Virus record (IMG/VR): IMGVR_UViG_3300035101_000006
Coordinates: 1 to 62,469 of that record
Strand: one strand, 5' to 3'
DNA from: a virus
Taxonomy: Duplodnaviria > Caudoviricetes
DNA: 62,469 nt
This document shows, in pieces, positions 1-62,469 of the stretch. The translations under genes were made by a program, and so were the position numbers. Numbering within the stretch: position 1 is the stretch's first letter; each line of letters opens with the position of its first letter. The notes beneath the pieces are model-generated. The model did not search any database and was not told the DNA's origin. It worked only from the letters and a program-made list of their open reading frames with translations.

Positions 1-161
1 CGCTGGGCGTTAGGCGGGTGAGTCTGGCCCCCGGTGGGGGTCAGCGAAGCCGCCTAACGCGCCGCGAGTTAAGCGGACTTCGGGTCATCCACTTCCCCCC
101 ACCAATCATCGACAAGTTTATAAAATGACGCCAAGCATTCTGAACATAAATCCGCATCACA
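1..161. repeat. Terminal direct repeat (copy 1), indicating a circular or circularly permuted assembly
   Basis: 1-161 equals 62309-62469 except T35 vs A62343. Confidence 0.95.
9..58. repeat. Cassette spacer hairpin H5 (= 62317-62366)
   Basis: GTTAGGCGG-gtgagt-CTGGCCCCC-ggw-GGGGGTCAG-cgaag-CCGCCTAAC. Confidence 0.9.
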
Positions 162-272
162 AAATATTGGCGCTTTCTTAGTCCGTAAAGCTAATTTCAA
201 GTCAAGTAACGAGAGAAAGGGATATGTATTCTCAATTTCATTTTTGCATCTATCGCATACTGTTATCTTCAT
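69..272 (-). CDS. Cassette ORF, small Cys-rich protein (CDRC...CSEC)
   Basis: 67 aa, AT-rich, purine-rich SD; stop TAA lies inside the CCGCTTAA repeat. Confidence 0.75.
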   Translation of the reverse strand: MKITVCDRCKNEIENTYPFLSLLDLKLALRTKKAPIFCDADLCSECLASFYKLVDDWWGEVDDPKSA

Positions 273-320
273 CTTGCCCCTTTTCTAATTCCAGACTAGC
301 AGTTCCGCTTCAATGAGCAG

Positions 321-530
321 TTATGCGTCCGAAGCGGTTGAGTCGGCTTCGTGTTGGTTGTTGGCGTCGTCGCTGGCTGCACTACTGGCGGCGATATCGT
401 TTAGCACAGCCTGAACGCCATCAATTCCTAGCAGCTCGGTGAGGTTATAAATCAAGTGATAGCACGGTTGAGAGTAAAGCAATATATCTTTTTCTCTCGA
501 TTCTTTTACCATTTCTGCTTCTGTTTTCAT
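321..530 (-). CDS. Cassette ORF, hypothetical protein
   Basis: MKTEAEMVKES start after AGGAGG; stop lies inside GCATAAC. Confidence 0.7.
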   Translation of the reverse strand: MKTEAEMVKESREKDILLYSQPCYHLIYNLTELLGIDGVQAVLNDIAASSAASDDANNQHEADSTASDA

Positions 531-593
531 TCTAGCCGCCTCCTGGCTATTTGATCTAGTAGAGCAAGGATGCCTGCTCATTGCTCGCGGCGC

Positions 594-645
594 GTTATGC
601 GTCCGAGCCTTCCTCCCGAAGGGAGTGAGAGCGAGGACGCATAAC
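594..645. repeat. Cassette spacer hairpin H6
   Basis: GTTATGCGTCC-gagccttc-CTCCC-gaa-GGGAG-tgagagcga-GGACGCATAAC. Confidence 0.9.
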
Positions 646-16092: not shown

Positions 16093-16291
16093 CCCCCTCG
16101 CTCCTTTCTGCCCCTGCCCCGTCGCCGTCGCTGGGGGCGCGGCGCTGCGCTACCTTATCATTGACGGGATTAAGATAGCCTAGTTTGTCCAGCGCATTCA
16201 CAACGTTGTAAACCAGACGCTTTGATTTCCTGCGCTGCATATATTCCTCAACCTCGTTGGTTATCCTGAATAGGTCTACTGGATGCATCAC
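16085..16291 (-). CDS. Hypothetical protein
   Basis: 68 aa, coupled. Confidence 0.5.
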   Translation of the reverse strand: MMHPVDLFRITNEVEEYMQRRKSKRLVYNVVNALDKLGYLNPVNDKVAQRRAPSDGDGAGAERSEGDE

Positions 16292-20429: not shown

Positions 20430-23400
20430 CTATTGCCCCGCATCGACAGGTAGCGCGCTACGTGTTCGGTCTTGACAGAGTGCAGGGCAAACGGATCAGA
20501 ACGCCAGTTCGGACACACGATCAAATACAGGTCGTTTGTGTCCCAGTCATCTTCCGCGCCACCCGTCAGCGTTCCGGTTATTTCGTAGTCATACCCTATA
20601 GACGTAATGACCGCGCTTGAGCCGTCCGTCAGATTGTAAACGATCATATCCGGTTTGACACCTGAACGCCAGAAATTCGCGTATCCGTCTTGCAATGTTG
20701 GGCTATTGTTTGCCCCCGTGTGATAGCCCTTGCACACGCCGGCAGCAGACAGGAAAAACAACTGCTGGTCTGCGTTGGCCTGCAATATCGCCGGACTCAA
20801 GCCCACGCGCTCATATATGCTGCGGATATATGCGCTTGCGTCTGCCGTGCGCACTGTGGCGCGGATGCTGCGCTTGGGGTACGTCACGCTGTCGGCGTCC
20901 AAAGAATACCCATTTGATACACCGCTGTCGGTTTCAAATGCCGCGTCTACAAAGTCGCCAACCCATTCATCGACCGGGACCAGGCACAGGTCATACATCG
21001 TAACTTGCAAGTTGTATGTTGCCTCGGACGCAATTTGCACGATGATATTAAACTCATTAGGCAACTCGTCTATGTTAAACGAGCCTGATACCGGCAAAGA
21101 AATTCTGCCAAAGTCGAGCAGTTGAAAGTCCTTGTAATGCTCTCCGTTTGCGTCTAGCCCGGTAAAGTGGCGGTACTCTGTCACCTTATAGACGCCACCA
21201 GATCCAGTCTGGAACAGCAGGCGCACGCGCACACCATCCTCGTCACCTGCAGGGGCGGCTGCGGGTTCTTCCAGTTGCGCGCGCATAAAGACGTGGAATG
21301 TGCCGTAATAGTCGCGCGCGATAGATGGCCCAAGCGTGACGGTAGCCACGTCTGCGTATATGTCCAGCGAGCCAGTGGGGGGCGTCGTGTGGCGGCAAGC
21401 AATCCCTGCAGGCGCGCGCGGGTCTGCAATGGTCGTCGTCCCTGTGCCATCCAGGACAATAACGCCTGTTGGGTTCTGGCTGTATGATGTGGCAACCACG
21501 CCGTCCTCTGCCAAGTTGATAAAGCTGGTAAATCCATCTCCGCGCGAAACGCCGCGCAGCCCGGCGATGATGCGGTTGTCCAGCAAGTCAAGCTCGTCTA
21601 CCGTTTCGTATCCATCCTCGTCTGAGCGGTTGTGCGTCTCAATCCGCAAGAGCGCGGGAACATCGCCGGCCACTTGTGCGTCGTCTATATCTACATCTGG
21701 CCAGGTGACGGTGTATACATCGCGGTGTTGTTGAATTGGAGACTGTAGCCACGTTCCAACGGCCGTTACCCTGGCGCGCACCCAAAGCGCAGTGACGCCA
21801 TTCACCGCATCCGTTGCCCAGTCATCGGGCGGAACCCAGGAAACAGAATTGACGCCCTGCCTATCGAACGGATCAAGTGCCATTGTGCCATCTTGCACAT
21901 TCAGCGTGTTCCACGCCGCGCCGCCCTGCGAATACTCCCACACTATCGTGATGGTTGCCCCGTTTAACTCTTGCAATATATCGAAAACCAACGAGCAGAA
22001 CGGGCCAAACTCGGACACGTTTGACGCAATGCCAAAGTATACAATGTCGCCAGCGACGAACGGCGATGGCAGCAAAAAGAATGGAAGTGTCGCCGGGAAA
22101 TGGCTTGTATACGCCGCGACGGTGCTGTTATAGACAAGTACATTTGATAGCTGGGCAATGTTTTTTTTATTCGCCACAAAGACTTCATCCAGGCAGGTTG
22201 CATCGCGCCCCACGTCCGTTGATTGTGACAAGATGTATATCTGTCCAAGCGCGCCGAGGTAGGCGAGTCCGTTGCCGGAATAGTTACCCACCATCCCCTC
22301 GCCGGGCGGCGCGGCTATCGTGTATATCGCCTTCCAATCAATTCCATCAGATGACTCGTAGATATTGCCGCCGCTCCCGCTCATAATATAGCTGCCGCTG
22401 GCAAGCTGCTGGATGTCGTTACCATACACGACGCCAAATACCGTATCGTCTGGTGTGACGCGCGCCCAGTTGATACCGTCAGATGTACGGTATAGTCGGG
22501 GACCGTCTAGCGTGCCGACAAGCTCGGATGCGAATAGATCATCTCCTATCTCTTGAAATACTGTAATGTAACTGAGGTTGTCGGTGATGAACACCTTTGT
22601 CCAGGTCGTTCCGTCCGTGCTGCGCCAGATGCTCCCGACATCAGACCCACTGCCACTCGACGTGTAAAGCGCATCCTCCCACACAAATAGTGCAATGCAC
22701 CCACCAAGCGGCGTTGAGAATACGCGCGTCCAGGTCGTGCCGCCGTCACTGCTGCGAAAAACTCCGCCGGTGACCGGACCACGAACAGCAGCATATAGAT
22801 AGCCGCCAAAATATGCAAGGCCGTTTTGATCGGCAAAGCTCGCCGCTCCGGCTCCGGTTATATCGTTGTTTCTGAGCGCCCAGTTGTTACCATCGTCTAC
22901 GCTGCGCCAGCATTCGGGCAGCGTGGTCCCGGTATCTGTGCCGATCAGATAAATGGTTGACCCGCCAACTTCAAGCATAGCCTGGCAATTCACATTTGGG
23001 GCAGGTGGAGCAGCGCACGCTGCCCACGGGGCGGTGCCGTCCAGCGAGCGCCATACATTGCTGCTTGCCTCGCACGCCACAAGAACGCCGCTGGTTGTTT
23101 CTATGATGTCGTGGACCTGCCCGACCGGGTTGGCGTCGTGGATTGCAAATAGTTCCTCGTATCTCCAATCTTCCTGCGTGCCACTCGCCTGCACGCAGTT
23201 GCACTCCACATCATCTTCGTCTGTGTAGTCACAATCACAATCCCACACCGCTTCAGTGATAGCTCCATCGTTGCTATTGCCCGAACGGTCATAGGTCGTC
23301 GCGCCCGCGCCTTCATAGATGACTTGCAGAACGACGCCAGCGTCAATGTTCGGCAGTTCACAGCGCGGCTCTGGCGTGAAGTCGCCGTCGGCGGGGTCGT

Positions 23401-25234
23401 AGGGGATGTCGTCGTGTACGCGCACCCATCCGATGTCGCCGTCGAATGTTCCAGATGCCCCGGCGTTATTGCCGATTATCAAATCATCGCCATTGTCAAC
23501 ACTATAGTTTCCGATGCTTACCTGCTGTGTGGGATAAGATGCAACCCAAACACCGTCTATCGCTAGATAAATTGTACGATTTGCTGGCAGGCCGCCGCCC
23601 GCTTCATCATACGTCATCAGGATGTGATGCCACTCACCGTCGGCGGTAAACTCATCCAAGCCGCTTGACGATATAGCATCCTGTGTCGCACAATCAACGT
23701 ATGACAATATTCCAACAGCAGAATCCACCAAGAGATGAAATCCACGCGTTGCTAGTGCATCACTGCCCTTGATAACAATACGGCCCTGATTGCCTTCACC
23801 ATACCCGTCTGCCCGTATCCACGCCTCGGCCGCCATCGGTCCGTTTCCTGCTATCGCGTTGTCTGGTAGGTCATCAATGCTGACCGCTGCTGCGACCGTT
23901 ACAAGGCTTGTCTCTCCATTGAACTCCAAATAGTTCGGCCAACAAGGATACACCGTGTTTTCATAGAGGCAATCGCAACCCCAAAGGACGGTAGTCAGCG
24001 TGCCATCGTTGTTGTGGCCTGAGTAGTCGTCGGTTTGCACTCCGCAGCCAGGCGAGTGTCTTAGGAGTAGTTGCGTCCCGGTGCTAGGATCTGGCGGAGT
24101 GCATCGCGGGTCGGGCGTGAAGTCGCCGCCAGCGGGGTCGTAGCGGATTGAGTCAGAGACGCGAACCCAGCCAATATCGCCATCAAATGCATGTCCTCCG
24201 ACAGAGTGATCACCAATCAATAAGTTACCTGCGGCATCTGTTGAATAGTTCCCAATGCTCACCTGTTGGGTCGGATAACTGGCAACCCAAACCCCATCAA
24301 TGGCAAGATAGATGGTCCTCGCTGCCGGAGTGTCAGCACCAGTCTCATCATAGCACATTAAGACGTGATGCCACAAACCATCGGCGGTAAACTCATCCAA
24401 GCCGCTATATGAAATTGCGTTTTGTGCTGCACAAAGGACATATCCAGCGAGTCCCTGTACACTGTCTAGTTGTAGAATCCATCCCCCCCCACGCTTCGAT
24501 ACAATATAGCCTTGACCTGTTTCTCCATATCCATTAGCCCGTATCCACCCATCTGCGGTCAATTGCCCTCGCCCTGCAACTGCATTATCTGGTATGTCGT
24601 CAAGGCTGGCATCACTCCCGCAATTGACGACAGAATCCGCGCCGTCAAATGTCAGATACGACGGATCGCACCCCGATTCTGTCCAGGTGATTGATTCGCT
24701 CTTTTCCTCCGGGCACGGCTGCCCAGGTGCAACGCTGCGCCAGAACGGTTCGCGCTCGATAACCAATCGCCAATCCTCAAACGCCGCCTGTCCCAGTTTG
24801 TTCCAGAAATAGTCTTGATTGCTGTATGGGTAGTTGTCAGCCTGCGCCCGGTAGTCCTCGATGAGTGAATAGCGCGCATTCGTCTCGCCCAGCCCCTGCG
24901 CCTTGATCCACACCGGCCCCGGAGTCCACGCTGTTGGAGAATATGAAGCCGCTTTCTCCAAGAGGCGGCGCAGTTCCTGCGTCTCACGCACAAGCATATC
25001 AGGCTCGAAGCTGCGCGCCTGGATTTCAAATGTCTCCATCGCATTTGCACGCTTGCGCACGCGCAACTTGCGCCCGTCTGCAAGCGGGCTGTCTGACCAG
25101 GTGCCGTCTCCCTTTATCTCAGACACGGCAGGCGTCCAGTCCGTGGCGAAGAACCCACTATGCGTATTTAGCAAATCAACCGTTGTGGTCCCATCTGTTA
25201 TTTGCAGTATCTGAAAGGCGGCACATCTCTGCAT
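20426..25234 (-). CDS. Large distal tail / receptor-binding protein with two LamG domains and a BNR beta-propeller
   Basis: Follows the tape measure; duplicated LamG; repeated RSxDGxTW Asp-boxes. Confidence 0.8.
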   Translation of the reverse strand: MQRCAAFQILQITDGTTTVDLLNTHSGFFATDWTPAVSEIKGDGTWSDSPLADGRKLRVRKRANAMETFEIQARSFEPDMLVRETQELRRLLEKAASYSPTAWTPGPVWIKAQGLGETNARYSLIEDYRAQADNYPYSNQDYFWNKLGQAAFEDWRLVIEREPFWRSVAPGQPCPEEKSESITWTESGCDPSYLTFDGADSVVNCGSDASLDDIPDNAVAGRGQLTADGWIRANGYGETGQGYIVSKRGGGWILQLDSVQGLAGYVLCAAQNAISYSGLDEFTADGLWHHVLMCYDETGADTPAARTIYLAIDGVWVASYPTQQVSIGNYSTDAAGNLLIGDHSVGGHAFDGDIGWVRVSDSIRYDPAGGDFTPDPRCTPPDPSTGTQLLLRHSPGCGVQTDDYSGHNNDGTLTTVLWGCDCLYENTVYPCWPNYLEFNGETSLVTVAAAVSIDDLPDNAIAGNGPMAAEAWIRADGYGEGNQGRIVIKGSDALATRGFHLLVDSAVGILSYVDCATQDAISSSGLDEFTADGEWHHILMTYDEAGGGLPANRTIYLAIDGVWVASYPTQQVSIGNYSVDNGDDLIIGNNAGASGTFDGDIGWVRVHDDIPYDPADGDFTPEPRCELPNIDAGVVLQVIYEGAGATTYDRSGNSNDGAITEAVWDCDCDYTDEDDVECNCVQASGTQEDWRYEELFAIHDANPVGQVHDIIETTSGVLVACEASSNVWRSLDGTAPWAACAAPPAPNVNCQAMLEVGGSTIYLIGTDTGTTLPECWRSVDDGNNWALRNNDITGAGAASFADQNGLAYFGGYLYAAVRGPVTGGVFRSSDGGTTWTRVFSTPLGGCIALFVWEDALYTSSGSGSDVGSIWRSTDGTTWTKVFITDNLSYITVFQEIGDDLFASELVGTLDGPRLYRTSDGINWARVTPDDTVFGVVYGNDIQQLASGSYIMSGSGGNIYESSDGIDWKAIYTIAAPPGEGMVGNYSGNGLAYLGALGQIYILSQSTDVGRDATCLDEVFVANKKNIAQLSNVLVYNSTVAAYTSHFPATLPFFLLPSPFVAGDIVYFGIASNVSEFGPFCSLVFDILQELNGATITIVWEYSQGGAAWNTLNVQDGTMALDPFDRQGVNSVSWVPPDDWATDAVNGVTALWVRARVTAVGTWLQSPIQQHRDVYTVTWPDVDIDDAQVAGDVPALLRIETHNRSDEDGYETVDELDLLDNRIIAGLRGVSRGDGFTSFINLAEDGVVATSYSQNPTGVIVLDGTGTTTIADPRAPAGIACRHTTPPTGSLDIYADVATVTLGPSIARDYYGTFHVFMRAQLEEPAAAPAGDEDGVRVRLLFQTGSGGVYKVTEYRHFTGLDANGEHYKDFQLLDFGRISLPVSGSFNIDELPNEFNIIVQIASEATYNLQVTMYDLCLVPVDEWVGDFVDAAFETDSGVSNGYSLDADSVTYPKRSIRATVRTADASAYIRSIYERVGLSPAILQANADQQLFFLSAAGVCKGYHTGANNSPTLQDGYANFWRSGVKPDMIVYNLTDGSSAVITSIGYDYEITGTLTGGAEDDWDTNDLYLIVCPNWRSDPFALHSVKTEHVARYLSMRGNR

Positions 25235-25237
25235 CTG

Positions 25238-28200
25238 CTATACCCCCTGAAGCGCCTTGCGTACCGCGCGGGTGGCGATGATCTCCACCGTCGCCACGTC
25301 AATTGGCGTGTTGAAGTAGTTTGGCCCGACGTTTGCCGTTCCCTGATAGCTGCGCGAGTTGTCGGTTGCCGCAGGCTGCCCCATCACAGGCCGCGCAGTC
25401 GTCACAGGAAATGCAGTGCTTACATCCCTGGTTAGCTCGCGCATCTTTGCCGCCAAGTCCGGCAGCGCGCGTGTCGCCCCCGTAATGCCTATCTCAAGCG
25501 GCGACGGGCTGTGGCCGATGAATGGGGCGGCGGCGGCGGCGCCCGCGTCGAACGTTTGGGTAAATTCGTGCCACGCCTTTGCCGCCTCTAGCACAACGCG
25601 GGCGACGGTTGTCACGCCCTCGATAATGCCGCCCGACCTCCAAAATATGTCTGCGATTTGCTCAAGCGCCCATATAAGCCCGCTTTCAGAATCCCCGAGA
25701 TATTTTAGGAATAGGGCAAGCGCGCCATCCCCTGTGAGGTATTCTGCCAGCTTCCCGGCGAGCTTCCACAGTGCAGCATAAACACTTTCGGTATCGCCGC
25801 CGATGAGGTCGCGTACAAATTCAAGCGTCGGTTTCAATGTCTCGTTTAGCACAGAATCAAACTCTTTCACCGCGCTCGGCATATTCGTTCTAAACCACAG
25901 TTGAACGGTGCCCCCCATCATCCGCACCGCATCTGGAATACTTATACCAAATATCCGCTCGAACACACCGCCATAGTAATTCATATAGAATTGGAGCAGG
26001 CCGCCTTCTTCTTCAACCTTTTCGCGGGCTGTCTGAATGGAAGATTTGAAATTTTCCCACGATAGATTGTCTATGATCGTCTGTATGTCTGCAATCATTC
26101 TATCGAACTTGGCGACCATTCCCTCTACCGGGGCGCCTTCTTCAATCCCTCCGAATATCATCGTCTGTATTCTGCCAAATGCCTCGACCAGCGGCTTGAA
26201 AATGTCAGCAAACTTCGCCTTCAACTGTTCCTTCATCGCGTCAATGGCTTCGCCTATCTTGCTGCTGATGTCCCACTTGCCACCGGCCCCGACGCCAGTC
26301 ATAATCTCGTTAAGAGACTTTCCAACGGACGCGGCAACGCCAGCCGCCCCTTCTTTCGTTCCCTTGAACAACTGCGCGAGATGGTCTACCAACTGCCGTT
26401 GCAGCGCGACCTGTTCCTGTAAATCGCCCGTGTCCTGTGCGGCCGCCGCCTTTTCCTGTGCCGCCGCTGCCTTTTCCTGCTCTGCTGCGCGCACCTCTGC
26501 CAGCTTTGCATCCAGTTCCTGCTGGGTTGCTCCCTCTCGTAGAAGTTGGTTATATTCGTGGACGGATTTTGCAACCTTTGTCTGCGCCGACTCATATTTC
26601 CTGTTTGCGTCATCCATCGCCTTCGTCGCCTTGGCGAGTTCAAATTCTGCGCGCGCCAATTTTGCCACCTCGACGCCAAAGATGCCCGCGCTCTTTGCGA
26701 TGCGGTCAAAGAACGTCTCGCCAATTCCGCCGCCAGCAGCGATGTCGCCGATTAGCGCCTTTGATAGCCCCGTCATTGCCTTTGGAGAAAGGAAGTTGCC
26801 GAGGGCGCTTTGCACGGTCTTTAGCACAGAGAAGTCGGCATCTGTGAACCCGCGCAAGTATTCAGCCATCGTCGCCGCGCCCCACTTGTCAATGTTCGGG
26901 GCGATGCGCGGTGGGGATCCGGGCGCCATCCAGAACGACAGCAGGCCACTGACGACGTTGGCCATTGCGTCGATTGCGTCGTAGGCTGCTGATACCATCC
27001 CCTCTGCCAGTGCAGCCACGATCTCAGCGCCCCACCGGAACATATCTTCGGCCGTTTGTCCTAATCCCCGGTTAAGCTCGTTTTCAATCCCCATAAGCAT
27101 CTTTGCCGTTTCTGCTATCGCCTTGCCGGGATTGAAAACGAGCATAAATATATTGCCAAGTTGCTTGTCAATGATGCTGATGATTGCCGGGAGGTTTGCG
27201 CTGATGTAGTTGAGTGCTGCTGAGAATCCATCGGCAACCAGGGAGGCGGCGGCACCAAGTTTGACGAGGATGGGATACAACGCGCCGCCCTCTTTCGTCG
27301 CTTCAGTCAGGGCATTGACGAACCCGCGAATGCCACTGCTGCTGTCGCCGATGACGGCAGAGAACGCGGGCAAGAACGCCTCCATCAACCCCGCCTTTAA
27401 CTCTGGCAACTCGCGCCCGGTGAATGAACGCAGGCGCTTTGTGGGAGACATCATCGCCGCGTCGTACACATCCATTATGTTCGCTGACTGTTCCAGAATG
27501 GCATTGACGCGCGCCTGCACTTCCTCCTGCTGCGTTAGCGCCTTAACATCTTTATTGAGTGAGTCTGCGTGCGTCTTTAGTGCCTTTTGATTGTCTACGG
27601 TGATTTGAAGCGCGGTAAGGCGCGCCGTGTTGCCCGTGACTATGGCGTCTGTAAGGCGCTCCATCGTTTCTGTTGAGTCCTCGTCGATGAGGATGCCCGT
27701 CGCCTGTGCAACTTTCACGAGGTCGCCGGCTTGTGCTAAGTCAATCTGGTTCCTTGCAAACTTCGCCGCCGCCTCGGCTGCTTTGTCGTAGCGTATTCCG
27801 GCCTCGTTTATCGTGTCTATGCCATCGCGGATCTCCTGCTCGCTCAACCCCATCGCGCGCCCGATGGCAAGCGCGGCCAGTCCTGCTTCCTCGAACCGCC
27901 CAGCCAGCATCAGCCCTTCTTGGCCGACTTGGACAAGAGTGGAGATGAATTGCTTGGCGAGATTTATTGCGCCCTGCATTACCTTTTGCAACGCCGTAAT
28001 CGCCGCCATTGCAACGCCCGCAGCAGCGCCAAGTGCAATTCCACCAGCAGCAGCGCCGCTTCCCCCTAATACGCTTGCCAATTTCAGAAATTCATTTGTG
28101 GTTCCTGCGACAAATCGACCGGTTTCTGTGTCTCTAAATCTTCCGGTCGTCTTATCATATTGAATTTCTGCCTTGCGCATATCAGACAGGAATTTTGCAA

Positions 28201-50068: not shown

Positions 50069-50296
50069 CTATGCAATGCACACAACTAGGTTATCCAACT
50101 CCCTATTATATCCGCACTGAAACTCAATACCAGAATGGGTCACAAACGTTTCAAGGCCGATCATTGGTTGCACAAAGTCTACGCGCGTATTTTCAGTTAT
50201 AGGCCATCCACGTAACTTGGCAAATAGAACAGCGCAATCAATCAGGTGTTCTGTGCTCTTTGCAAATGCCATCATCCTCCCCCTAGTAGCTCCCAA
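50069..50296 (-). CDS. Hypothetical protein
   Basis: About 70 aa. Confidence 0.5.
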   Translation of the reverse strand: MGATRGRMMAFAKSTEHLIDCAVLFAKLRGWPITENTRVDFVQPMIGLETFVTHSGIEFQCGYNRELDNLVVCIA

Positions 50297-51578
50297 TCCT
50301 CACCGGGTTATACACCACGCGCCCCTGCTCCTGCTCTGTGTGCGTCAGCCAGGCGACGGCATAGCGCAGGCTGTCCAAGCAGTGAAACTTTTCTTTGTTC
50401 TCTACCTCGTCTTGGAACTCGCCCGTTCGCTTGTTCAGCTTGCGGTGGTATTCCTCGATCTCGCTCAGTAGTTGCTTGCAGGTGTCGTGTATGACCAGGC
50501 TGTCGGTTTGCAGCAAGTCCAGCACCCGGTCAATGCCCACCCAAAAGTCGGCTATTGGCGGGTCTACAACCGGGATGCCGGCCGCCTGGAACTCCACGCG
50601 CCAGTCGCGTTCTGACTTTGCCCCACACACCCAGGCGAACACCGGCCCTCCTTGCGTCTCTGATAACACCTTCTCCGCAAAGTGCTGCACCGTCGAACCG
50701 AACGGCAGCACCAACTCCCTGTAAACGTGCAGCCTGTTACCTTGCGGATCGTAGGCCAGCCACAGCGCCGCCCGCTTTGCGCCGGCCGGGTCGATGCCCA
50801 CCACTCGCGGCCACTGTCGCGGTATCTCGAACGCAGCTGCGAGGTGCTTTCCGTACTCGCCATCTTCCCGCAGGCCGTCGAAGTGCTCGCCATAGATGCT
50901 GCCCTCCGGTGCTGCCCACAGGCCGTATCTGTACCGCTTCTTCAGCGCCCCCGTCAGCCTGTCCAGCGCCCCTATGCGCTGCTTGCCCTGCTCCGTGATT
51001 TCGCCCGTTCTCTGGTCGTACAGGTCGGGGTTGTCCCTGTGTCTTGAATTGAACAGCGTCAACAGGCCGGATTTCGCCCGCTGGCGTATCCAGTGCGACG
51101 GGGGGCCAGGGTTGCAATCGCCGATCACCTGCGGGTGCGGTATGTGCCCCGCGCGGCCGGTCGCCCGCATCGTCAGCATTTGCCAGTCCATCACAGTCAA
51201 CTCTTCGGCCTGGTTGACGTAGACGCCATCGAACTGGCCTGATAGCACCTTGGTTGACTTGTCCATCCCCGCAACCCACACGCGGGAACCGTTGGGGTAG
51301 TCATACCATTGCGCCTTCTCGCCACCGTATATTGTGACGGTCGGGTCTATTATCTCATTCTGCCAGGTTTGCAGTACTGTTGAGTACGTGTCGGTGAGTT
51401 GTTTACGTGCTATGACAAAGCTGGCGTCGTCGTACTTGTGCGCCAGCCAATGGAATTTCGTTAAAAACGTGATCGTCTTGCCGGTGTCTGCCGGCCCCGC
51501 CAGTATGACTTCCTGGTCGTGGCAGAGGTAGGCGCGGCGGTTCTCGCCGTAGACGATGGGAAGGTGTATTTTCTCAAT
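50283..51578 (-). CDS. terL: Terminase large subunit (non-canonical start)
   Basis: Frame extends ~100 codons upstream of the track ORF and contains Walker A GPADTGKT; NQAEE, GDCNP, GIDP, HCLDSLRY. Confidence 0.9.
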   Translation of the reverse strand: MEKIHLPIVYGENRRAYLCHDQEVILAGPADTGKTITFLTKFHWLAHKYDDASFVIARKQLTDTYSTVLQTWQNEIIDPTVTIYGGEKAQWYDYPNGSRVWVAGMDKSTKVLSGQFDGVYVNQAEELTVMDWQMLTMRATGRAGHIPHPQVIGDCNPGPPSHWIRQRAKSGLLTLFNSRHRDNPDLYDQRTGEITEQGKQRIGALDRLTGALKKRYRYGLWAAPEGSIYGEHFDGLREDGEYGKHLAAAFEIPRQWPRVVGIDPAGAKRAALWLAYDPQGNRLHVYRELVLPFGSTVQHFAEKVLSETQGGPVFAWVCGAKSERDWRVEFQAAGIPVVDPPIADFWVGIDRVLDLLQTDSLVIHDTCKQLLSEIEEYHRKLNKRTGEFQDEVENKEKFHCLDSLRYAVAWLTHTEQEQGRVVYNPVRIGSY

Positions 51579-58319: not shown

Positions 58320-59411
58320 CTAATTCGCGGTGTGGGGTGGGGTAGCAGGCGGCGTGGTGACTGTTTTTGGCTCCGGTGCGACCAAGTTCAGAAAATCTGC
58401 ACCCTCTGCCGTAATGTCAACCCCCTGCTTGTGGGCCTTCGGGTTTGTCCACTTCGCAAACCCCTTCCCAAACATCCACTCGCATACGTCCTGATACTCT
58501 TTCTGTGACAGAATCCCTGCCCCGCTGCTGCAGCACGCCGTTTCAGAGAATTTCTTGGTGGTCAATATGTACCGCGCCAGTTGAATCATCGTGTCATCGT
58601 CCAGCGGGCAATCATCGTGACTATGCTCAGAGATAAGTCGCCCGTTTGCGTCTCTGGTGGTTATCGTCAGGTGAATTTCGCGCGGCGCCGCCTGCGCGGC
58701 CGATGCCCGCTTGTTCCGCACCGCCCACCACCACGGCGGCTCATTCCCGGCCAAGAGCGAACCGACGGCACCCCAAATGTTCTGCTCCTGGAATACCGAC
58801 TTTTGCGCCAGTTTTTGCGAGAACGCAAGTTCGATATGCACCCAAAACGACGCAGACGCAATGGCGAGAATCGCCGCAACCAATGGGCCAAATAGTCGCC
58901 ACGCATCGGCGGACCATTCCAGCCACCACGGAAGCACAATTTCCGGCGCAACCAGCACGGCGACACGCCATAGACACCAGACCAGGCCGCCGAGCAGGGC
59001 AGACGCCCCCACGCCAATTATCAGCGTCAAAAGAATGACGCCGAGAATCAGCGCCGGACCCGTGCCACGCTCCACCAGCTCGCCTATCCATAGCTCGATT
59101 GATTCCTGTCTGAGCCAGCGGCGGACGGCCAGCACCCACCAGATGAACGTCGCCACAGATCCAACAAACCACACGACGAACAGCGCGTCTTTACCAATGG
59201 CGAACACAGCCAGCAAAAACGATGTGACCATTGACGCAAGGGCGATGGACGCCCAGCGCGCTTGCAACACTGGCACGGTTACATCGTTTTCGCGCCCGGC
59301 CTCGCGGCGCTCGTCTATCTCTGCTGGCGTCGACCCCTTGCGTTCTATGTCAAGTTCGCCGCCTAGCTGCCCTATTCTGCTTTTCCTTGCTCTTGCATCC
59401 ATTGTCAGCAT
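58320..59411 (-). CDS. Multi-TM membrane protein with a C-terminal winged-helix-like domain
   Basis: Four to five TM segments; KGFAKW...DITAEGADFL. Confidence 0.6.
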   Translation of the reverse strand: MLTMDARARKSRIGQLGGELDIERKGSTPAEIDERREAGRENDVTVPVLQARWASIALASMVTSFLLAVFAIGKDALFVVWFVGSVATFIWWVLAVRRWLRQESIELWIGELVERGTGPALILGVILLTLIIGVGASALLGGLVWCLWRVAVLVAPEIVLPWWLEWSADAWRLFGPLVAAILAIASASFWVHIELAFSQKLAQKSVFQEQNIWGAVGSLLAGNEPPWWWAVRNKRASAAQAAPREIHLTITTRDANGRLISEHSHDDCPLDDDTMIQLARYILTTKKFSETACCSSGAGILSQKEYQDVCEWMFGKGFAKWTNPKAHKQGVDITAEGADFLNLVAPEPKTVTTPPATPPHTAN

Positions 59412-59549
59412 CCTATTCACCCCAGCCCCCCGGCGGCTGCGGCGGCTGCCCTGCGTGGCTGCGGCGCTGGCGGCGGGCTTCAATCATTGCGGTTTTTATG
59501 TCCATCTAATTGCCTTTTGTGGGAGCGAGCAGCCCGAACGCGCCGCGAG

Positions 59550-59804
59550 TTAAGCGGAGGGTGGGTTTTTCGTTTCATCTTCTATTGGCTCAAACGCTTG
59601 TTCAAAATCATAATCTCGCCAAATATGTTTCTCTCCAAGTGGGCCAGTTACTATCCAATCACCACGGCCCACGATTAGCCTGCCTTGATCTGTCTCAACA
59701 ACGCCATATACCCCGCCCGCCCTCTCAGTAACATCTTTAGTAGATTTCCCTGGATACCACTGTTCTGCCTCTACTATCACTGGATTTTTTCTAAACTTTG
59801 GCAT
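59550..59804 (-). CDS. Cassette ORF, conserved phage protein (MPKFRK.PV..EA.QW type)
   Basis: FRKNPVIVEAEQW...GDWIVTG..GE......FEQAFE; AAGGAG SD. Confidence 0.8.
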   Translation of the reverse strand: MPKFRKNPVIVEAEQWYPGKSTKDVTERAGGVYGVVETDQGRLIVGRGDWIVTGPLGEKHIWRDYDFEQAFEPIEDETKNPPSA

Positions 59805-59859
59805 TTGCACGCTCTCCTTGTGAACTAGTCCCGTCCAACCCTTCCGCTTCAATGAGCAG

Positions 59860-60066
59860 TTATGCGTCCGAAGCGGTTGAGTCGGCTTCGTGCTGGTTGT
59901 TGGCGTCGTCGTCTGATTCAGCGGGGCGGCGGATAATGTGGTCGAATGCCCCGGCTTTGATAAGTTCTATAACACATTTTAGGCAAAGACCGTTTGGCAC
60001 AGTGCCTTTTTCACCACATCGCCTGCACTTCTTATCAAGATTAATGTCGATTGTTGCTGTTGGCAT
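59860..60066 (-). CDS. Cassette ORF, small zinc-finger protein
   Basis: CRRC...CLKC; stop lies inside GCATAAC. Confidence 0.7.
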   Translation of the reverse strand: MPTATIDINLDKKCRRCGEKGTVPNGLCLKCVIELIKAGAFDHIIRRPAESDDDANNQHEADSTASDA

Positions 60067-60132
60067 AATTAGCCGCCTTTCTGCTCACTGGTCAAGTAGA
60101 GCGAAACCGTCCTGCTCATTTAACTCGCGCCC

Positions 60133-60181
60133 ATTCGACGGGTGAGCCTCCCTCCGAAGGATGGGAGCGAAGCCGTCGAAC
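60133..60181. repeat. Cassette spacer hairpin H1
   Basis: aTTCGACGG-gtgagc-CTCCC..GGGAG-cgaag-CCGTCGAAC. Confidence 0.9.
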
Positions 60182-60190
60182 GTGGGCGAG

Positions 60191-60556
60191 TTAAGCCGCC
60201 CTATGGGTTTGCTTTCGCTCGAATCTATGGCACGCATCATCTGCATCCGTTTCTATTTTCCATAAATAACAATGCCCAAATCTATGATTGAGTTTGTTCA
60301 TTTTCCAATTGACGCAATCGCGGCACCGTAGCTTCAGCCCAAGACTAATAGGGTCGGCTTCAATGAGTTGTTCGGGGCGCGAGCGTGTAGCGTCGGTTCC
60401 CGATGGCTCTGGACTGCCTTCTGGCGTGGTTAAGGCGTTCTGCAAATCCGAGTTCATATCTGCCAGTGTAAGCACTAGGTGTGCAAGATCACTTTTCGAT
60501 TTGTTCATCAGAGAGTTATAGGTTAAATCTGTCGTTACTACGATGGTTGTTCCCAT
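60191..60556 (-). CDS. Cassette ORF, hypothetical with C-terminal Cys cluster
   Basis: CRDCVNW...GHC...C; stop lies in GGCTTAA. Confidence 0.7.
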   Translation of the reverse strand: MGTTIVVTTDLTYNSLMNKSKSDLAHLVLTLADMNSDLQNALTTPEGSPEPSGTDATRSRPEQLIEADPISLGLKLRCRDCVNWKMNKLNHRFGHCYLWKIETDADDACHRFERKQTHRAA

Positions 60557-60643
60557 TATCTTCACCTTTCCCTTTCAAGCCGTTCTCTGCTTCAGACTTA
60601 GAGCGTCCCCGATGACAACTCATTGAAGTGTTAACTCGCCCAC

Positions 60644-60690
60644 GTTCGGGTCAAGCGAGCTGGCCCAGAGGGTCAGCGAGCGACCCGAAC
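60644..60690. repeat. Cassette spacer hairpin H2
   Basis: GTTCGGGTC-aagcgag-CTGGCCC-aga-GGGTCAG-cgagc-GACCCGAAC. Confidence 0.9.
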
Positions 60691-60716
60691 GGCGCGGAGA
60701 TAAGCGGACTTGCGGG

Positions 60717-61088
60717 TTAGGCGCGCTCGTGATACTGACACGTTTCTCCAATCTTTTTTATGCCGTCATATATGCCGCATTGACCATGGTTGTTAGTGTG
60801 CGGCACAACAAGCCAGTATTCACAATCTGGCCCGCATCTCAAGATAGCATCATTAGCAAGTTCCGCTTCATTGACTGGTTCGCCCTCTGAGCGGATTTGC
60901 TGCTTCGTGTCGCTGGGGGCGTCATCTGGGGCTGCATCGTGGGCGGCGTATTTTGCCTTAATGGTCGTGTCCCACAAATTATACCCAAGCCAATCCCCAA
61001 CCCGCGAGGCCGCTTTTCTCAGCCTCTCAAGCGTCATCATATCGAGATAAATAAACCCAACTGCCATAACTTCAAATTTCTTGTCCAT
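60717..61088 (-). CDS. Cassette ORF, hypothetical with C-terminal Cys cluster
   Basis: MDKKFEV...CGPDCEYW...C...C. Confidence 0.7.
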   Translation of the reverse strand: MDKKFEVMAVGFIYLDMMTLERLRKAASRVGDWLGYNLWDTTIKAKYAAHDAAPDDAPSDTKQQIRSEGEPVNEAELANDAILRCGPDCEYWLVVPHTNNHGQCGIYDGIKKIGETCQYHERA

Positions 61089-61153
61089 TCTAGCCGCCTT
61101 TCTGTTCTCAAATCCTGATAAGTTCAGAGGGTCAGTCAATGTATCTCCGCGCC

Positions 61154-61205
61154 GTTCGCCCTCTGAGCCTCCCTTCGTACCCGAACGGGAGCGAAGAGGG
61201 CGAAC
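61154..61205. repeat. Cassette spacer hairpin H3
   Basis: GTTCGCCCTCT-gagc-CTCCC..GGGAG-cga-AGAGGGCGAAC. Confidence 0.9.
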
Positions 61206-61330
61206 GGGCCGGAGATATGCTGCGCGTGTGTAGGTGCGTTTGCTACCACCGTGCCCACCATCTCAAGTGCCATCCGTCCCATACCTCCATACTAGCGCAG
61301 CATCATTGACTGGTTATCCGCCCGAACGGG

Positions 61331-61585
61331 TCAGGCGGCTTCATCTTCTGCGCCAGAATCATCTTCACACGAGAGATCAGACAAGGCGACTTTTAGAGAT
61401 TGTAATGCTTCTATAGCATAGATGATTCCAGCAGCCCTGCCGTGCCAATGAACCGCAGATTTACCAGAACCCCATTGTTTCGAAAGTTCAGATTGTTTAA
61501 TGCTCTCGGCTGCTTCATCAAAAAGATGATCTAATCCCATAGTGCCTTTGTCTCTTAATGCCCTTAGTTTGTCCGTGAGTGTCAT
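61331..61585 (-). CDS. Cassette ORF, hypothetical
   Basis: AGGAGGT SD, 84 aa. Confidence 0.7.
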   Translation of the reverse strand: MTLTDKLRALRDKGTMGLDHLFDEAAESIKQSELSKQWGSGKSAVHWHGRAAGIIYAIEALQSLKVALSDLSCEDDSGAEDEAA

Positions 61586-61663
61586 TTTAATACCTCCTAG
61601 CCTTGCTCTTATTGAGCGGAGTCACGTTGAGAGAGAAGGATAACCTCAATGTATCTCCGGCCC

Positions 61664-61710
61664 GTTATCCGCGCCGAACCTCCCCCAGAGGGGGAGTGAG
61701 GGCGGATAAC
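61664..61710. repeat. Cassette spacer hairpin H4
   Basis: GTTATCCGC-gccgaac-CTCCCCC-aga-GGGGGAG-tgagg-GCGGATAAC. Confidence 0.9.
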
Positions 61711-61735
61711 GCCCAGCGAGTTAAGCGGACGCGGG

Positions 61736-61927
61736 TTAATCCACCCACCATCGGCTCGCATCTTCTGGCTTACCTTCTGAATCAATGCGAATAGTCCCTT
61801 TACAATCCGGGTACTCGGAACATCCCCAGAATGGCTCCCAATCCTGATTGGGTCTTGGCCGTCGAAGTACCATTTGCGCGCCACATTCGGGGCAGTAAGG
61901 TTTCGGTTCTGTTTGTATCCCGTGCAT
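61736..61927 (-). CDS. Cassette ORF, stand-alone topoisomerase-type C4 zinc finger
   Basis: CPECGAQMVLR...FWGCSEYPDCKG. Confidence 0.85.
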   Translation of the reverse strand: MHGIQTEPKPYCPECGAQMVLRRPRPNQDWEPFWGCSEYPDCKGTIRIDSEGKPEDASRWWVD

Positions 61928-61981
61928 TTTCTGACTCCTAGACTAGCGTTCCGCTTCAATGAGCAGTTAGGCGGCGAGCGC

Positions 61982-62242
61982 TTAAACGTCCTCACCGCTG
62001 TATTCAAGATCAAGGTCACATTCCAGGCCCGCAAGGCGTCTTTCTGCGCGTCTCTGGTGCCAATGAATGCACCGTTTGACAATAAAACCCCACAACTTTT
62101 TGGGATGATGGAACGGACGGAGAAGCCCCATATTGACGGCCCACTCTATGTCCCGATATGAGCCGAAATTCTGAGACCACATATGAAACATCCAACAACC
62201 GTATGCAAGCGCTACCTGTTCATCACTTACCTTGTTTCCCAT
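61982..62242 (-). CDS. Cassette ORF, hypothetical
   Basis: GGAGGT SD, MGNKVSDE. Confidence 0.65.
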   Translation of the reverse strand: MGNKVSDEQVALAYGCWMFHMWSQNFGSYRDIEWAVNMGLLRPFHHPKKLWGFIVKRCIHWHQRRAERRLAGLECDLDLEYSGEDV

Positions 62243-62308
62243 ATTAACCTCCAAGCCTTGCTCTCTGCCTCTAAATTCCAGTCAAGCGATGACGCCCTGC
62301 TCATTGCT

Positions 62309-62469
62309 CGCTGGGCGTTAGGCGGGTGAGTCTGGCCCCCGGAGGGGGTCAGCGAAGCCGCCTAACGCGCCGCGAGTTAAGCGGACTTCGGGTCATCCAC
62401 TTCCCCCCACCAATCATCGACAAGTTTATAAAATGACGCCAAGCATTCTGAACATAAATCCGCATCACA
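62309..62469. repeat. Terminal direct repeat (copy 2)
   Basis: Matches 1-161 with a single mismatch. Confidence 0.95.

What the first reader, a model, noticed from the sequence alone, without database searches (positions are those of the whole stretch)
59521..62469. Phage-borne, integrase-less gene-cassette array with an 'inside-out' attC architecture (continues 1-660)
Seen: six units (59540-60132, 60182-60643, 60691-61153, 61206-61663, 61711-62316, 59-593) carry nine small, mostly AT-richer ORFs. They are separated by 47-52 bp hairpins whose arms read GTT...AAC (ATT in H1). Each hairpin's arms match only each other. Five units are closed by a private inverted repeat: CGAACGTGGGCGAGTTAA/TTAACTCGCCCACGTTCG, CGAACGGCGCGGAGATA/TATCTCCGCGCCGTTCG, AACGGGCCGGAGATA/TATCTCCGGCCCGTT, TAACGCCCAGCGAG/CTCGCTGGGCGTTA and TAACGCGCCGCGAG/CTCGCGGCGCGTTA. 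The sequence identity switches at the AAC/GTT triplets. Known: integron cassettes recombine at G|TT, with the gene between GTTRRRY and RYYYAAC and a short attC between RYYYAAC and GTTRRRY. Here that is reversed: genes sit between AAC and GTT, and the GTT-to-AAC part is an empty hairpin. Inference: an ssDNA-structure-based, site-specific gene-shuffling platform in a phage, possibly undescribed.
Basis: partly seen in the sequence, partly recalled or inferred. Interest (0 to 1): 0.93.

Follow-up and report, generated by a model that had tools for sequence, protein, structure and literature searches.

The report
Phage gene cassettes bounded by hairpins
A phage genome carries six small gene units, each closed by its own inverted repeat and separated by integron-like DNA hairpins; it looks like a gene-shuffling array with its exchange point in an unusual place, but no enzyme, relative or moving copy has been found.

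Summary
Six units of 458-606 nt lie on the minus strand of a ~62.3 kb tailed-phage contig. They are separated by 47-52 nt GTT...AAC hairpins that occur nowhere else in the genome. Five units are closed by perfect private inverted repeats that begin at the AAC/GTT triplets.

Where they are intact, a junction reads TTAAC - 8-9 nt - GTT-stem...stem-AAC - 8-9 nt - GTTAAGC, which is the four-box order of an integron attC. On the strand opposite the genes the hairpins are purine-rich in their unpaired bases and carry GAA/AGA/GGA loops, as attC bottom strands do.

Only 1 of 6 junctions has canonical outer boxes. The near-invariant triplets and the identity switch sit at the inner boxes. Each unit also holds an internal half-site and nested repeats a(b(A)b' c(B)c')a'.

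I found no recombinase in the phage, no related phage, no second instance and no sign of movement.

- **Best reading (0.45):** a cassette array built by structure-specific, integron-like recombination with exchange at the inner AAC and the enzyme supplied in trans.
- **Rivals:** dif-module-like invertible units, RNA processing stems, an ordinary CALIN.

The parts
59521..59539 (+). H0: right half of a hairpin site (GGGAG-CGAG-CAGCCCGAAC) with no left arm. It marks the distal end of the array in gene direction, and the RBS of the next backbone gene abuts it.
   Evidence: Sequence; pattern match; weak model match of 12.7 bits at 59485-59558.
59540..60132 (-). Unit 1. Gene A 59860-60066 (68 aa, CxxC...CxxC); gene B 59550-59804 (84 aa, phrog_419). 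Internal half-site 59842-59871. Its closing repeat is imperfect: 10 nt, displaced 3-4 nt from the boundary.
60118..60196 (+). Junction H1. Inner hairpin 60133-60181 (ATT...AAC). The only junction with canonical outer boxes: ATTTAAC...GTTAAGC on +, GCTTAAC...GTTAAAT on -.
60182..60643 (-). Unit 2. One 121-124 aa ORF (60191-60565) in which the A and B parts are fused in frame through the internal site 60353-60377. Private repeat 60177-60194 / 60631-60648. Inner repeat 60358-60371 / 60615-60628 (14 nt, 100%).
60644..60690 (+). Hairpin H2 (GTTCGGGTC...GACCCGAAC).
60691..61153 (-). Unit 3. ORF 60717-61088 (123 aa, A and B fused). Internal half-site 60861-60892, of which 60878-60892 is identical to the left arm and 5' loop of H3 (61154-61168). 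Private repeat 60686-60702 / 61142-61158.
61154..61205 (+). Hairpin H3.
61206..61663 (-). Unit 4. Gene A 61331-61585 (84 aa). Internal half-site 61300-61329. A 48-aa ORF, 61136-61282, reads through H3. Private repeat 61203-61217 / 61652-61666.
61664..61710 (+). Hairpin H4.
61711..62316 (-). Unit 5. Gene A 61982-62242 (86 aa); gene B 61736-61927 (63 aa, topoisomerase-type zinc ribbon). Internal half-site 61949-61973. Private repeat 61707-61720 / 62307-62320.
62317..62366 (+). Hairpin H5, the same sequence as 9-58. The two copies differ by one base in the terminal loop (GGA / GGT).
59..593 (-). Unit 6 (its start is also at 62367-62469). Gene A 321-530 (69 aa); gene B 69-272 (67 aa, Cys-rich). 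Internal half-site 303-332. Closing repeat 51-68 / 584-601 (17 of 18).
594..645 (+). Hairpin H6, the first site in gene direction. Unrelated backbone sequence follows directly after its AAC.

Best explanation
The region is an array of mobile-type gene cassettes built by structure-specific site-specific recombination of the integron kind. It differs from a canonical integron in where the strand exchange takes place.

Site layout. Each cassette carries its own recombination site, a long quasi-palindrome: outer box, 8-9 nt spacer, inner GTT stem, purine-rich internal loop, short distal stem with a 3-nt purine loop, inner stem ending in AAC, spacer, outer box. The strand that folds is the one opposite the genes, as in attC sites.

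Exchange point. Strand exchange occurs at the conserved inner triplet (G|TT = AA|C) at the foot of the inner hairpin. In attC terms this is the L-box position, where the normally silent recombinase subunit sits, and not the outer R' box.

Consequence. Because the exchange point lies inside the stem, every insertion splits the outer stem of the incoming site. One half ends up at each end of the unit. That leaves a perfect private inverted repeat around each unit and mismatched hybrid outer stems at each junction.

Enzyme. The phage encodes no recombinase, so it must come from the host or a co-resident element.

Status of each step:
- Shown: the anatomy, the covariation, the strand asymmetry and the repeat pattern.
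- Inferred: that recombination made the array, the exact exchange point, and which enzyme acts.
- Unexplained: the internal half-sites. They may be relics of fused cassettes.
For: 1. Private repeats. The cognate arms of units 2-6 are perfect for 10-13 nt from the AAC/GTT boundary. Non-cognate arms match for 4 nt or less, and the two arms of one junction for 1-2 nt. An off-centre exchange inside a palindromic site predicts this pattern.

2. Structure kept, sequence not. 10 of 16 stem pairs have compensatory changes and 93.8% of cells pair; 0 of 500 shuffles reach the covariation score. The cargo proteins are unrelated to each other, apart from one shared 24-aa tail and a few weak matches of E 0.005-0.009.

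3. attC-like strand asymmetry on the strand opposite the genes.
- Unpaired bases are purines in 49 of 61 on the + strand against 19 of 75 on the - strand.
- Terminal loops are GAA, AGA, AGA, GGA and GAA in 5 of 6 hairpins.
- Coding-strand GC and AT skews are -0.09 and -0.18 in the hairpins against +0.10 and +0.14 in the units.
- The + strand folds better in 6 of 6 hairpins with RNA parameters.
- Nivina et al. report the same traits for attC bottom strands (PMC5027507, passages read).

4. Four-box order. It matches a canonical attC found next to an IntI-like gene in a MAG of the candidate host class (L093).

5. Stop codons. Three downstream genes (units 1, 2 and 6) end with their TAA inside the outer GCTTAAC box.

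6. Array ends. At H6, unrelated backbone follows directly after the AAC. At the other end only a half-site remains. This is the arrangement an insertion series at a non-hairpin primary site would leave.

7. The 70-nt segment shared by units 1 and 6 (98.6% identity) starts, on the + strand, at the TT of a GTT. The base before it differs: G in unit 6, C in unit 1.

8. The sites occur only in the array. The array is AT-richer than the genome. Promoter-like and terminator-like matches in it are at chance level.

9. Integron integrases occur in the candidate host class: 4 of 201 genomes score over the TIGR02249 cut-off.
Against: - No direct evidence of movement. Contigs of the one run that holds the sequence show only the assembled order; the joints listed are cross-mapping of the internal 70-nt repeat and the contig wrap.
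- No second instance anywhere: three viral patterns, one metagenome pattern, 49 related loci, and 151 + 151 genomes of the candidate host class and phylum.
- No recombinase in the phage.
- The 8-9 nt spacer is longer than the 4 and 6 nt of the canonical example. A tyrosine recombinase that uses such spacing is not known to me (recalled).
- Not all breakpoints lie at GTT/AAC. The upstream end of the unit 1 / unit 6 shared segment is inside gene A. A co-occurring variant contig diverges at 61671, inside hairpin H4 and after its left arm.
- With DNA parameters and flanks included, the + strand is more stable in only 2 of 6 junctions, equal in 1, and less stable in 3 by 0.3-1.6 kcal/mol. G:T pairs are 3 against 2.
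- The model does not predict the internal half-sites or the nested b/b' and c/c' repeats.
- The host assignment rests on one helicase match of 64% identity.
Confidence: 0.45

Rival explanations
1. Modules shuffled or inverted by a host tyrosine recombinase acting on double-stranded core sites, as in the dif modules of Acinetobacter plasmids. Each core site is an inner arm ending in AAC, a spacer of 8-9 nt of which the first 5-7 vary, and a conserved outer arm (GAGTTAAGCGG). Sites alternate in orientation. Gene units are therefore flanked by inverted sites with identical spacers and can invert. The roughly 30-nt hairpin cores are the alternating 'empty' modules.
For: - Each unit is flanked by exact inverted copies of one site: 14-18 nt at 100% for units 2-5, and 17 of 18 nt for unit 6.
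- Only the spacer differs between units, while AAC, GAG and TTAAGC are shared.
- Two sites in direct orientation share an identical 22-nt stretch, 59537-59558 and 56-77, so deletion of units 1-5 would be allowed.
- In dif modules, C and D modules alternate between inversely oriented pdif sites, ORF-less modules exist, rearrangements need identical or near-identical spacers, and the enzymes are chromosomal XerC/XerD. This would explain the missing recombinase (PMC13141974, passages read).
- Tyrosine recombinase matches occur in 199 of 201 genomes of the candidate host class.
Against: - Integration of a circle by double-strand recombination yields direct repeats of a site, not inverted ones, so this model does not explain how the private inverted pairs arose.
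- The inner arms vary freely but stay perfectly complementary to each other. That points to recognition of a fold, not of a sequence arm.
- The distance between the putative cleavage points would be 10-11 nt, against 6 bp in pdif.
- All nine genes face the same way, and no strand-changing joint was seen (contigs only).
Confidence: 0.15
2. The stems act in RNA. The array is one early transcript in which hairpins and long-range stems bracket each cistron, as processing, stability or translation signals. This resembles RNase III sites between phage early genes or the stems around rRNAs. Under this reading the repeats are kept by selection for pairing, not left by recombination.
For: - The repeats nest without spacers as a(b(A)b' c(B)c' )a'.
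- Minimum-energy RNA folds of whole units reproduce hairpin / closing stem / hairpin. For unit 3 they also reproduce the two inner stems. z-scores are -4.8 and -5.0.
- The hairpins have a lower stem, an internal loop and an upper stem. This is the general shape of T7-type RNase III sites (recalled; not checked by any search).
- There are no sigma-70-like promoters or intrinsic terminators beyond chance between units, so co-transcription is plausible.
- No evidence of DNA movement was found.
Against: - On the mRNA-sense strand the unpaired bases are pyrimidine-rich (19 of 75 purines), and the hairpins fold less well in 6 of 6 with RNA parameters.
- The closing repeats of units 2-6 are perfect over their reported runs, so they contain no G:U pairs and no mismatches. 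That is unusual for stems kept only by RNA selection.
- The unit genes are unrelated, so duplication and divergence in place is unlikely.
- No Rfam family matches; the best hits are miRNA-precursor models at 26-30 bits against gathering scores of 84-107.
Confidence: 0.2
3. An ordinary cluster of attC sites without an integrase (CALIN), taken from a host integron. IntI would exchange strands at the outer GTTAAGC box. The private repeats would be incidental or decayed features.
For: - Four-box order.
- GTTAAGC is present at 4 of 6 junctions plus H0.
- Stop codons fall in GCTTAAC.
- Bottom-strand-like asymmetry.
- CALINs are known in 17 phages, and 5 of 6 tested phage attC sites recombined with IntI1 (PMC9892861, section 3.4).
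- IntI occurs in the candidate host class.
Against: - A strict test for paired RYYYAAC...GTTRRRY boxes passes only 1 of 6 junctions. The same test finds the control site in L093.
- The opposite outer box lacks AAC in 4 of 6 junctions. Yet AAC is described as the only stretch conserved in all attC sites (PMC5027507).
- Exchange at the outer box would put the two halves of each private repeat in different cassettes, which canonical recombination cannot produce.
- The spacers are 8-9 nt, and the inner stem has no extrahelical base.
- At H6 the backbone starts right after the inner AAC.
Confidence: 0.1
4. Conserved intergenic scaffolds that promote ordinary homologous recombination between co-infecting phages, like the PeSL motifs of T4-type phages, with no dedicated site-specific enzyme.
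For: - The region looks like a hyperplastic zone of small orphan genes.
- Short conserved motifs recur between units: CAATGAG, AAGCGGAAC, GAGTTAAGCGGAC.
- Units 1 and 6 share a 70-nt patch with one end inside a gene.
- PeSL exchanges make mini-circles (PMC2839356, abstract).
Against: - The stems differ in sequence between junctions and keep only their pairing, so they offer little homology.
- PeSLs are promoter plus terminator. Here promoter-like and terminator-like matches are at chance level.
- Homologous exchange does not create private inverted repeats.
Confidence: 0.05

Closest known systems
Integron attC sites and CALINs (attC clusters without an integrase), including those reported in phages (Qi et al. 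2023, PMC9892861; attC features from Nivina et al. 2016, PMC5027507)
   Same: - Co-oriented small genes separated by imperfect hairpins of 75-80 nt overall.
- Four boxes in the order AAC-spacer-GTT...AAC-spacer-GTT.
- Structure conserved, sequence not.
- Purine-rich unpaired bases and GAA-type loops on the strand opposite the genes.
- Stop codons in the box next to the gene.
- No integrase nearby, as in a CALIN.
- Phage location already described.
   Different: - The near-invariant triplets and the identity switch are at the inner boxes, not at R'.
- The outer boxes are canonical in 1 of 6 junctions.
- The spacer is 8-9 nt, against 4 and 6 nt in the control site.
- The inner stem has no extrahelical base.
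- The private complement extends over 10-18 nt instead of 6.
- Each unit holds two genes and an internal half-site.
dif modules of Acinetobacter plasmids (XerC/XerD, pdif sites; PMC13141974)
   Same: - Discrete gene modules, each flanked by inversely oriented sites.
- Alternating module types, including ORF-less ones.
- Spacer identity governs which sites can react.
- The recombinase is encoded elsewhere.
   Different: - pdif sites are sequence-defined 11-6-11 sites. Here one arm varies freely and pairs with its neighbour to form a hairpin.
- The spacer is longer.
- The element is in a phage, and no Xer-arm similarity was tested.
PeSL regulatory cassettes of T4-type phages (PMC2839356, PMC4122927)
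   Same: Repeated stem-loop motifs between small non-essential genes in a variable phage region; these motifs mediate gene shuffling and mini-circle formation.
   Different: PeSLs are sequence-conserved promoter-terminator units that recombine by homology. The present sites lack promoter or terminator features and differ in sequence.
RNase III processing hairpins between early genes of T7-like phages, and the long-range stems around rRNAs (recalled; no call)
   Same: Hairpins with a lower stem, an internal loop and an upper stem between cistrons of one transcript, and stems that bracket a whole gene.
   Different: The strand asymmetry favours the antisense strand, the closing stems are perfect and private, and nothing is known about the host's RNases.
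Single-strand hairpin elements cut by HUH enzymes (IS200/IS605, REP/RAYT; recalled; no call)
   Same: A folded single strand is recognised, and cleavage falls at a short conserved sequence at the foot of a hairpin.
   Different: The Pfam and PHROG scans of the phage ORFs listed no such enzyme, though its family was not searched for by name. Those elements carry sequence-conserved hairpins at both ends inside the element.

Membership tests
Integron attC site / CALIN | Imperfect hairpin bounded by paired R'' (RYYYAAC) and R' (GTTRRRY) boxes | tested here: not met
   The strict box-and-pairing scan passes H1 only, 1 of 6 junctions. The same scan finds the control attC in L093.
Integron attC site / CALIN | AAC/GTT triplet conserved in all sites at the exchange point in the R box (PMC5027507) | tested here: not met
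   The outer box on the gene-start side lacks the triplet in 4 of 6 junctions. The inner boxes have AAC in 7 of 7 sites and GTT in 5 of 6.
Integron attC site / CALIN | Cassette boundary at G|TT of R', so only about 6 nt at the start of a cassette complement its own R'' | tested here: not met
   The complement runs 10-13 nt from the inner triplet, or 14-18 nt with the shared core. At H6 the backbone begins after the inner AAC.
Integron attC site / CALIN | Unpaired features: extrahelical bases, an unpaired central spacer and a variable terminal structure | tested here: inconclusive
   The hybrid outer stems have bulges and mismatches, and there is a 4-8 nt internal loop and a 3-nt loop. The inner stems have no extrahelical base, and the spacers are 8-9 nt.
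Integron attC site / CALIN | Bottom strand (opposite the genes) is purine-rich, folds better and often has a GAA loop | tested here: met
   Purines 49 of 61 against 19 of 75; negative coding-strand skews; loops GAA x2, AGA x2, GGA; + strand better in 6 of 6 with RNA parameters, but in only 2 of 6 with DNA parameters and flanks.
Integron attC site / CALIN | Recognised by IntegronFinder or HattCI; recombined by an IntI | not testable with these tools
   Neither program is on hand, and no assay is possible. No IntI in the window.
dif modules (Xer) | Modules flanked by inversely oriented sites, with alternating module types | tested here: met
   Inverted identical sites flank units 2-6, and the hairpin cores alternate with the units.
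dif modules (Xer) | Sites made of XerC and XerD binding arms separated by a 6-bp spacer (PMC13141974) | tested here: not met
   The spacer is 8-9 nt, and the inner arm is not conserved in sequence. Similarity to the host dif site was not tested.
PeSL cassettes | Strong sigma-70-like promoter plus terminator stem-loop, conserved in sequence (PMC2839356 abstract) | tested here: not met
   2 promoter-like and 3 terminator-like matches in the array, against 2.2 and 2.9 expected; none lies at a hairpin. The stems differ in sequence.
Known RNA families (Rfam 15) | Match at or above a family's gathering score | tested here: not met
   Only three miRNA-precursor models match, at 26-30.5 bits against gathering scores of 84-107.

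The most novel reading that the evidence does not exclude
A separate class of structure-specific cassette recombination. A folded single strand with the layout of an attC site is cut at the AAC at the 3' foot of its inner hairpin, the position of the normally silent subunit. Part of the stem therefore travels to the far end of each inserted cassette. The enzyme is an unknown recombinase supplied in trans, and a virulent-type phage uses the platform to collect and reshuffle accessory genes.
Probability: 0.3. Interest if true: 0.9.

Novelty: new variant of a known kind. Interest (0 to 1): 0.68.

Why it matters
Integrons are the only well-studied system in which genes are captured through a folded single-stranded site recognised by shape.

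An array with the same site layout and strand bias, but with its exchange signature at the other pair of boxes, would show that this chemistry has more than one working geometry. It would also raise the question of which subunit of a recombinase tetramer is active.

It would also give phages an integron-like way to trade small accessory genes without carrying an integrase.

The case is concrete enough to test: six defined sites, a predicted cut position, and a predicted empty primary site.

If instead the stems act in RNA, the array is an unusually regular example of every cistron in an operon being bracketed by its own long-range stem.

Tried and rejected
Searches for a second instance or a relative all came back empty.
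- Proteins flanking the array (387 aa and 140 aa) have no relatives in viral contigs.
- Three site or motif patterns were scanned in viral contigs. They gave 27, 2 and 0 loci. On inspection none had GTT/AAC stems.
- One pattern that matches 5 of the 7 sites was scanned in metagenome contigs. It gave 4 loci, all chance matches.
- blastn of the array against 50,697 phage records gave no match.
- The helicase 4.4 kb upstream gave 4 genome loci and 45 viral loci. No locus shares more than 3 of 32 window proteins. A GTT...AAC hairpin scan of the 45 viral loci showed no array, and the four genome loci had none either. The covariance model gave 0 matches in 49 loci, 739,794 nt.
- The model gave 0 of 151 genomes in the class and 0 of 151 in the phylum of the best helicase match. 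The same route finds the six sites in the window itself.
- The site pattern with 3 mismatches in four genomes gave 2 chance matches.
- The unit 3 protein matches only its own record among 5.8 billion proteins.
- The unit 1 gene B has one 28%-identical relative, with no comparable repeats around it.
- The model does not match the canonical attC in L093 or the other intI contigs.

Other points.
- An N4-like hairpin-promoter reading was considered (recalled) and dropped. It explains neither the long stems nor the private repeats, and the scans listed no RNA polymerase family.
- Assembly artefact is rejected: independent contigs agree with the window.
- The relaxed box scan gave 343 hits and tells nothing.
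- The bin 59661-59783 shows no contig cover; nothing is made of that.
- I did not build a covariance model of canonical attC sites, because only one control site was in hand.
- The supplements of the papers were closed. Supplementary tables of PMC9892861 list the phage CALINs and could hold a similar case.
- That the inner-box signature is not in print rests only on searches and on the passages read.

Full report
**What the window is.** The 62,469-nt window is an IMG/VR virus record that CheckV puts at 82% complete. Its last 161 nt repeat its first 161 nt with one mismatch, so it is a circularly permuted or terminally redundant genome of about 62.3 kb. Nearly all long ORFs lie on the minus strand. 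PHROG and Pfam matches include:
- portal, head protease/major head, tape measure and a helicase-methyltransferase;
- small terminase and a large-terminase nuclease domain, two HNH endonucleases, an RNA ligase, DUF5131 and a PAPS-reductase domain.

It is a tailed phage. There are no tRNA genes.

**The observation.**
- Six hairpins of 47-52 nt begin with GTT (ATT in H1) and end with AAC. They have 9-11 perfect base pairs at the foot.
- A pattern built from them matches only at the array, against zero chance expectation.
- A covariance model of the six junctions scores them at 72-88 bits, and nothing else in the genome scores above 14 bits.
- Ten of 16 consensus pairs show compensatory changes, and no shuffle reaches the observed covariation.
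- The closing repeats of units 2-5 are 14-18 nt and perfect. That of unit 6 is 17 of 18.
- Counted from the triplet, cognate arms match for 10-13 nt, non-cognate arms for 4 nt or less, and the two arms of one junction for 1-2 nt.
- Unit 1 is the exception. Its repeat is 10 nt and starts 3-4 nt away from the boundary.
- Independent contigs of one public run, probably the source sample, reproduce the region without differences. It is not an assembly artefact.

Outside the private arms there are further boxes. Read on the gene strand, a junction is GCTTAAC, then 8-9 nt, then the GTT stem, internal loop, short distal stem and 3-nt loop. The stem ending in AAC follows, then 8-9 nt, then a last box. 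That last box is GTTAAAT at H1 but degenerate at H3-H6. On the plus strand the last box is GTTAAGC at H0, H1, H4 and H5. The order AAC-spacer-GTT...AAC-spacer-GTT matches a canonical attC that I found beside an IntI-like gene in a MAG of the candidate host class, where the spacers are 4 and 6 nt (L093). The GTT...AAC hairpin therefore sits where the L boxes and terminal structure of an attC sit.

**Strand bias.** The hairpins show the strand bias reported for attC bottom strands (PMC5027507). On the strand opposite the genes:
- unpaired bases are purines in 49 of 61, against 19 of 75 on the gene strand;
- loops are GAA, AGA, AGA, GGA and GAA;
- coding-strand skews are negative in the hairpins and positive in the units;
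- this strand folds better in 6 of 6 hairpins with RNA parameters.

With DNA parameters and flanks included, the advantage holds in only 2 of 6 junctions. G:T pairs are 3 against 2.

**Grammar inside each unit.** Read in gene direction, every unit is:

hairpin | a b - gene A - copy of the hairpin's 3' half | b' c - gene B - c' a' | next hairpin

- The pair a/a' is private.
- The pair b/b' (CAATGAGCAG / CTGCTCATTG, or CATTGACTG / CAGTCAATG) brackets gene A.
- The pair c/c' (AAGCGGAAC / GTCCGCTTAAC) brackets gene B.
- The brackets nest without spacers.
- RNA folds of whole units recover the closing stem, and for unit 3 all three stems.
- The internal half-site copies 7-15 nt of the unit's own upstream hairpin in units 2-6. 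Unit 1 instead carries the unit 6 version, within a 70-nt patch of 98.6% identity.
- In units 2 and 3 the A and B parts are fused in frame across this site. In units 1 and 6 a TAA inside the copied xxTAAC ends gene A, and in unit 5 gene A stops just upstream of it.

**Cargo.**
- Three downstream genes stop inside GCTTAAC.
- The proteins are unrelated to each other, except for one shared tail and a few weak matches of E 0.005-0.009, among them one between two Cys-rich domains.
- Only one has a Pfam domain above its cut-off, a topoisomerase-type zinc ribbon. One other matches phrog_419.
- The unit 3 protein has no relative in 5.8 billion proteins.

**Canonical attC membership.** This largely fails.
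- A strict test for paired RYYYAAC...GTTRRRY boxes passes only H1.
- The triplet said to be conserved in all attC sites is missing from one outer box in 4 of 6 junctions. The inner AAC is present in 7 of 7 sites and the inner GTT in 5 of 6.
- The identity switch lies at the inner boxes.
- At H6 the backbone follows the inner AAC directly. [quoted passage not shown]
- Exchange at the outer box would place the two halves of each private repeat in different cassettes.

**How it most likely works.** A site that is a long quasi-palindrome, exchanged at a fixed off-centre point, leaves what is seen here: half of the outer stem at each end of the inserted DNA, and hybrid, mismatched outer stems at the junctions. 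In attC terms the inferred point, AA|C at the 3' foot of the inner hairpin on the purine-rich strand, is where the second, normally inactive subunit would cut.

Two small details fit a cut between G and TT, though each could be a point mutation:
- H1 begins ATT.
- The shared patch of units 1 and 6 begins at the TT of a GTT, and the preceding base differs between the two units.

The enzyme is not in the phage. PF00589 gives no candidate in six frames, and the family scans of 68 backbone ORFs list no recombinase or transposase family. Integron integrases occur in 4 of 201 sampled genomes of the class that holds the best helicase match. That host link is weak.

**Against this reading.**
- Nothing shows movement.
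- No relative or second instance was found by any route.
- Two breakpoints do not lie at the triplets.
- The internal half-sites and the b and c brackets are not predicted by the model.

**Rivals.** Each explains part of the anatomy.
- A dif-module-like system of inverted double-stranded sites with private spacers accounts for the design and for the missing enzyme. It does not account for the origin of the inverted pairs or for the covarying inner arms.
- RNA processing stems account for the nested brackets. The strand bias and the perfect, private stems speak against them.
- A plain CALIN is contradicted by the box test and by the position of the identity switch.
- PeSL-like homology scaffolds are contradicted by the lack of sequence conservation and of promoter or terminator features.

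**Novelty.** Integrase-less attC clusters in phages are in print (PMC9892861). An array with attC layout but an inner-box exchange signature was not found in searches. These are lexical searches of an open-access library, and the paper supplements were closed. I rate it a new variant of a known kind. It rests on a single locus, and the mechanism is inferred from anatomy alone.

Noticed in passing
window 1-161 and 62309-62469: A 161-nt terminal direct repeat with one mismatch at position 35, which falls in the terminal loop of hairpin H5 (GGT against GGA). IMG/VR classes the record as linear. The repeat suggests a complete circularly permuted genome, and the mismatch suggests strain heterogeneity.
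   Followed up: partly
window 59842-59911 and 303-372: A 70-nt segment at 98.6% identity is shared by units 1 and 6. It covers the acidic C-terminal tail of gene A (DDANNQHEADSTASDA) and the internal half-site. This indicates a recent exchange between units; one end lies at a GTT and the other inside the gene.
   Followed up: yes
window 60191-60565 and 60717-61088: In units 2 and 3 the upstream and downstream parts form one ORF. It reads through the internal site, where GAA replaces the TAA seen in units 1, 5 and 6. The C-terminal parts share a Cys/His pattern (27.5% identity over 40 aa).
   Followed up: partly
window 61671, 62371 and 59444 (run X1): Contigs of the same run diverge from the window at these places. 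After 61671 there is a different distal hairpin behind the same left arm of H4. Before 62371 there is a different right arm and different first bases of the closing repeat. So related strains with altered junction sites co-occur.
   Followed up: no
window 16288-17025, and one of the ORFs in alignment A2: Two HNH endonuclease genes (HNH_3; the first also has NUMOD4). The large terminase appears only as a C-terminal nuclease-domain match at 50283-51281, so it may be split or divergent.
   Followed up: no
window 20426-25234: A 1602-aa ORF next to the tape-measure gene has no PHROG match. It is presumably a tail or host-recognition protein.
   Followed up: no
L093 742-833 (G145:C28): A canonical attC-like site (GCCCAAC...GTTAGAC, 92 nt, spacers 4 and 6 nt) lies on a 2.8-kb contig with an IntI-like gene that scores just below the cut-off (259 against 265 bits). 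The contig belongs to a MAG of the class that holds the best helicase match.
   Followed up: partly
window 59413-59505 and 58320-59483: Just downstream of the array, an ATG with a good ribosome-binding site opens only a 30-aa frame. The 387-aa membrane-protein ORF starts at a TTG in another frame. Its true start, or a frameshift, is unresolved.
   Followed up: no
window 27080-27139: A 60-nt GTT...AAC inverted repeat with a 12-bp stem lies inside the tape-measure gene. The array model scores it 9.2 bits (27063-27160), so it is probably coincidental.
   Followed up: partly
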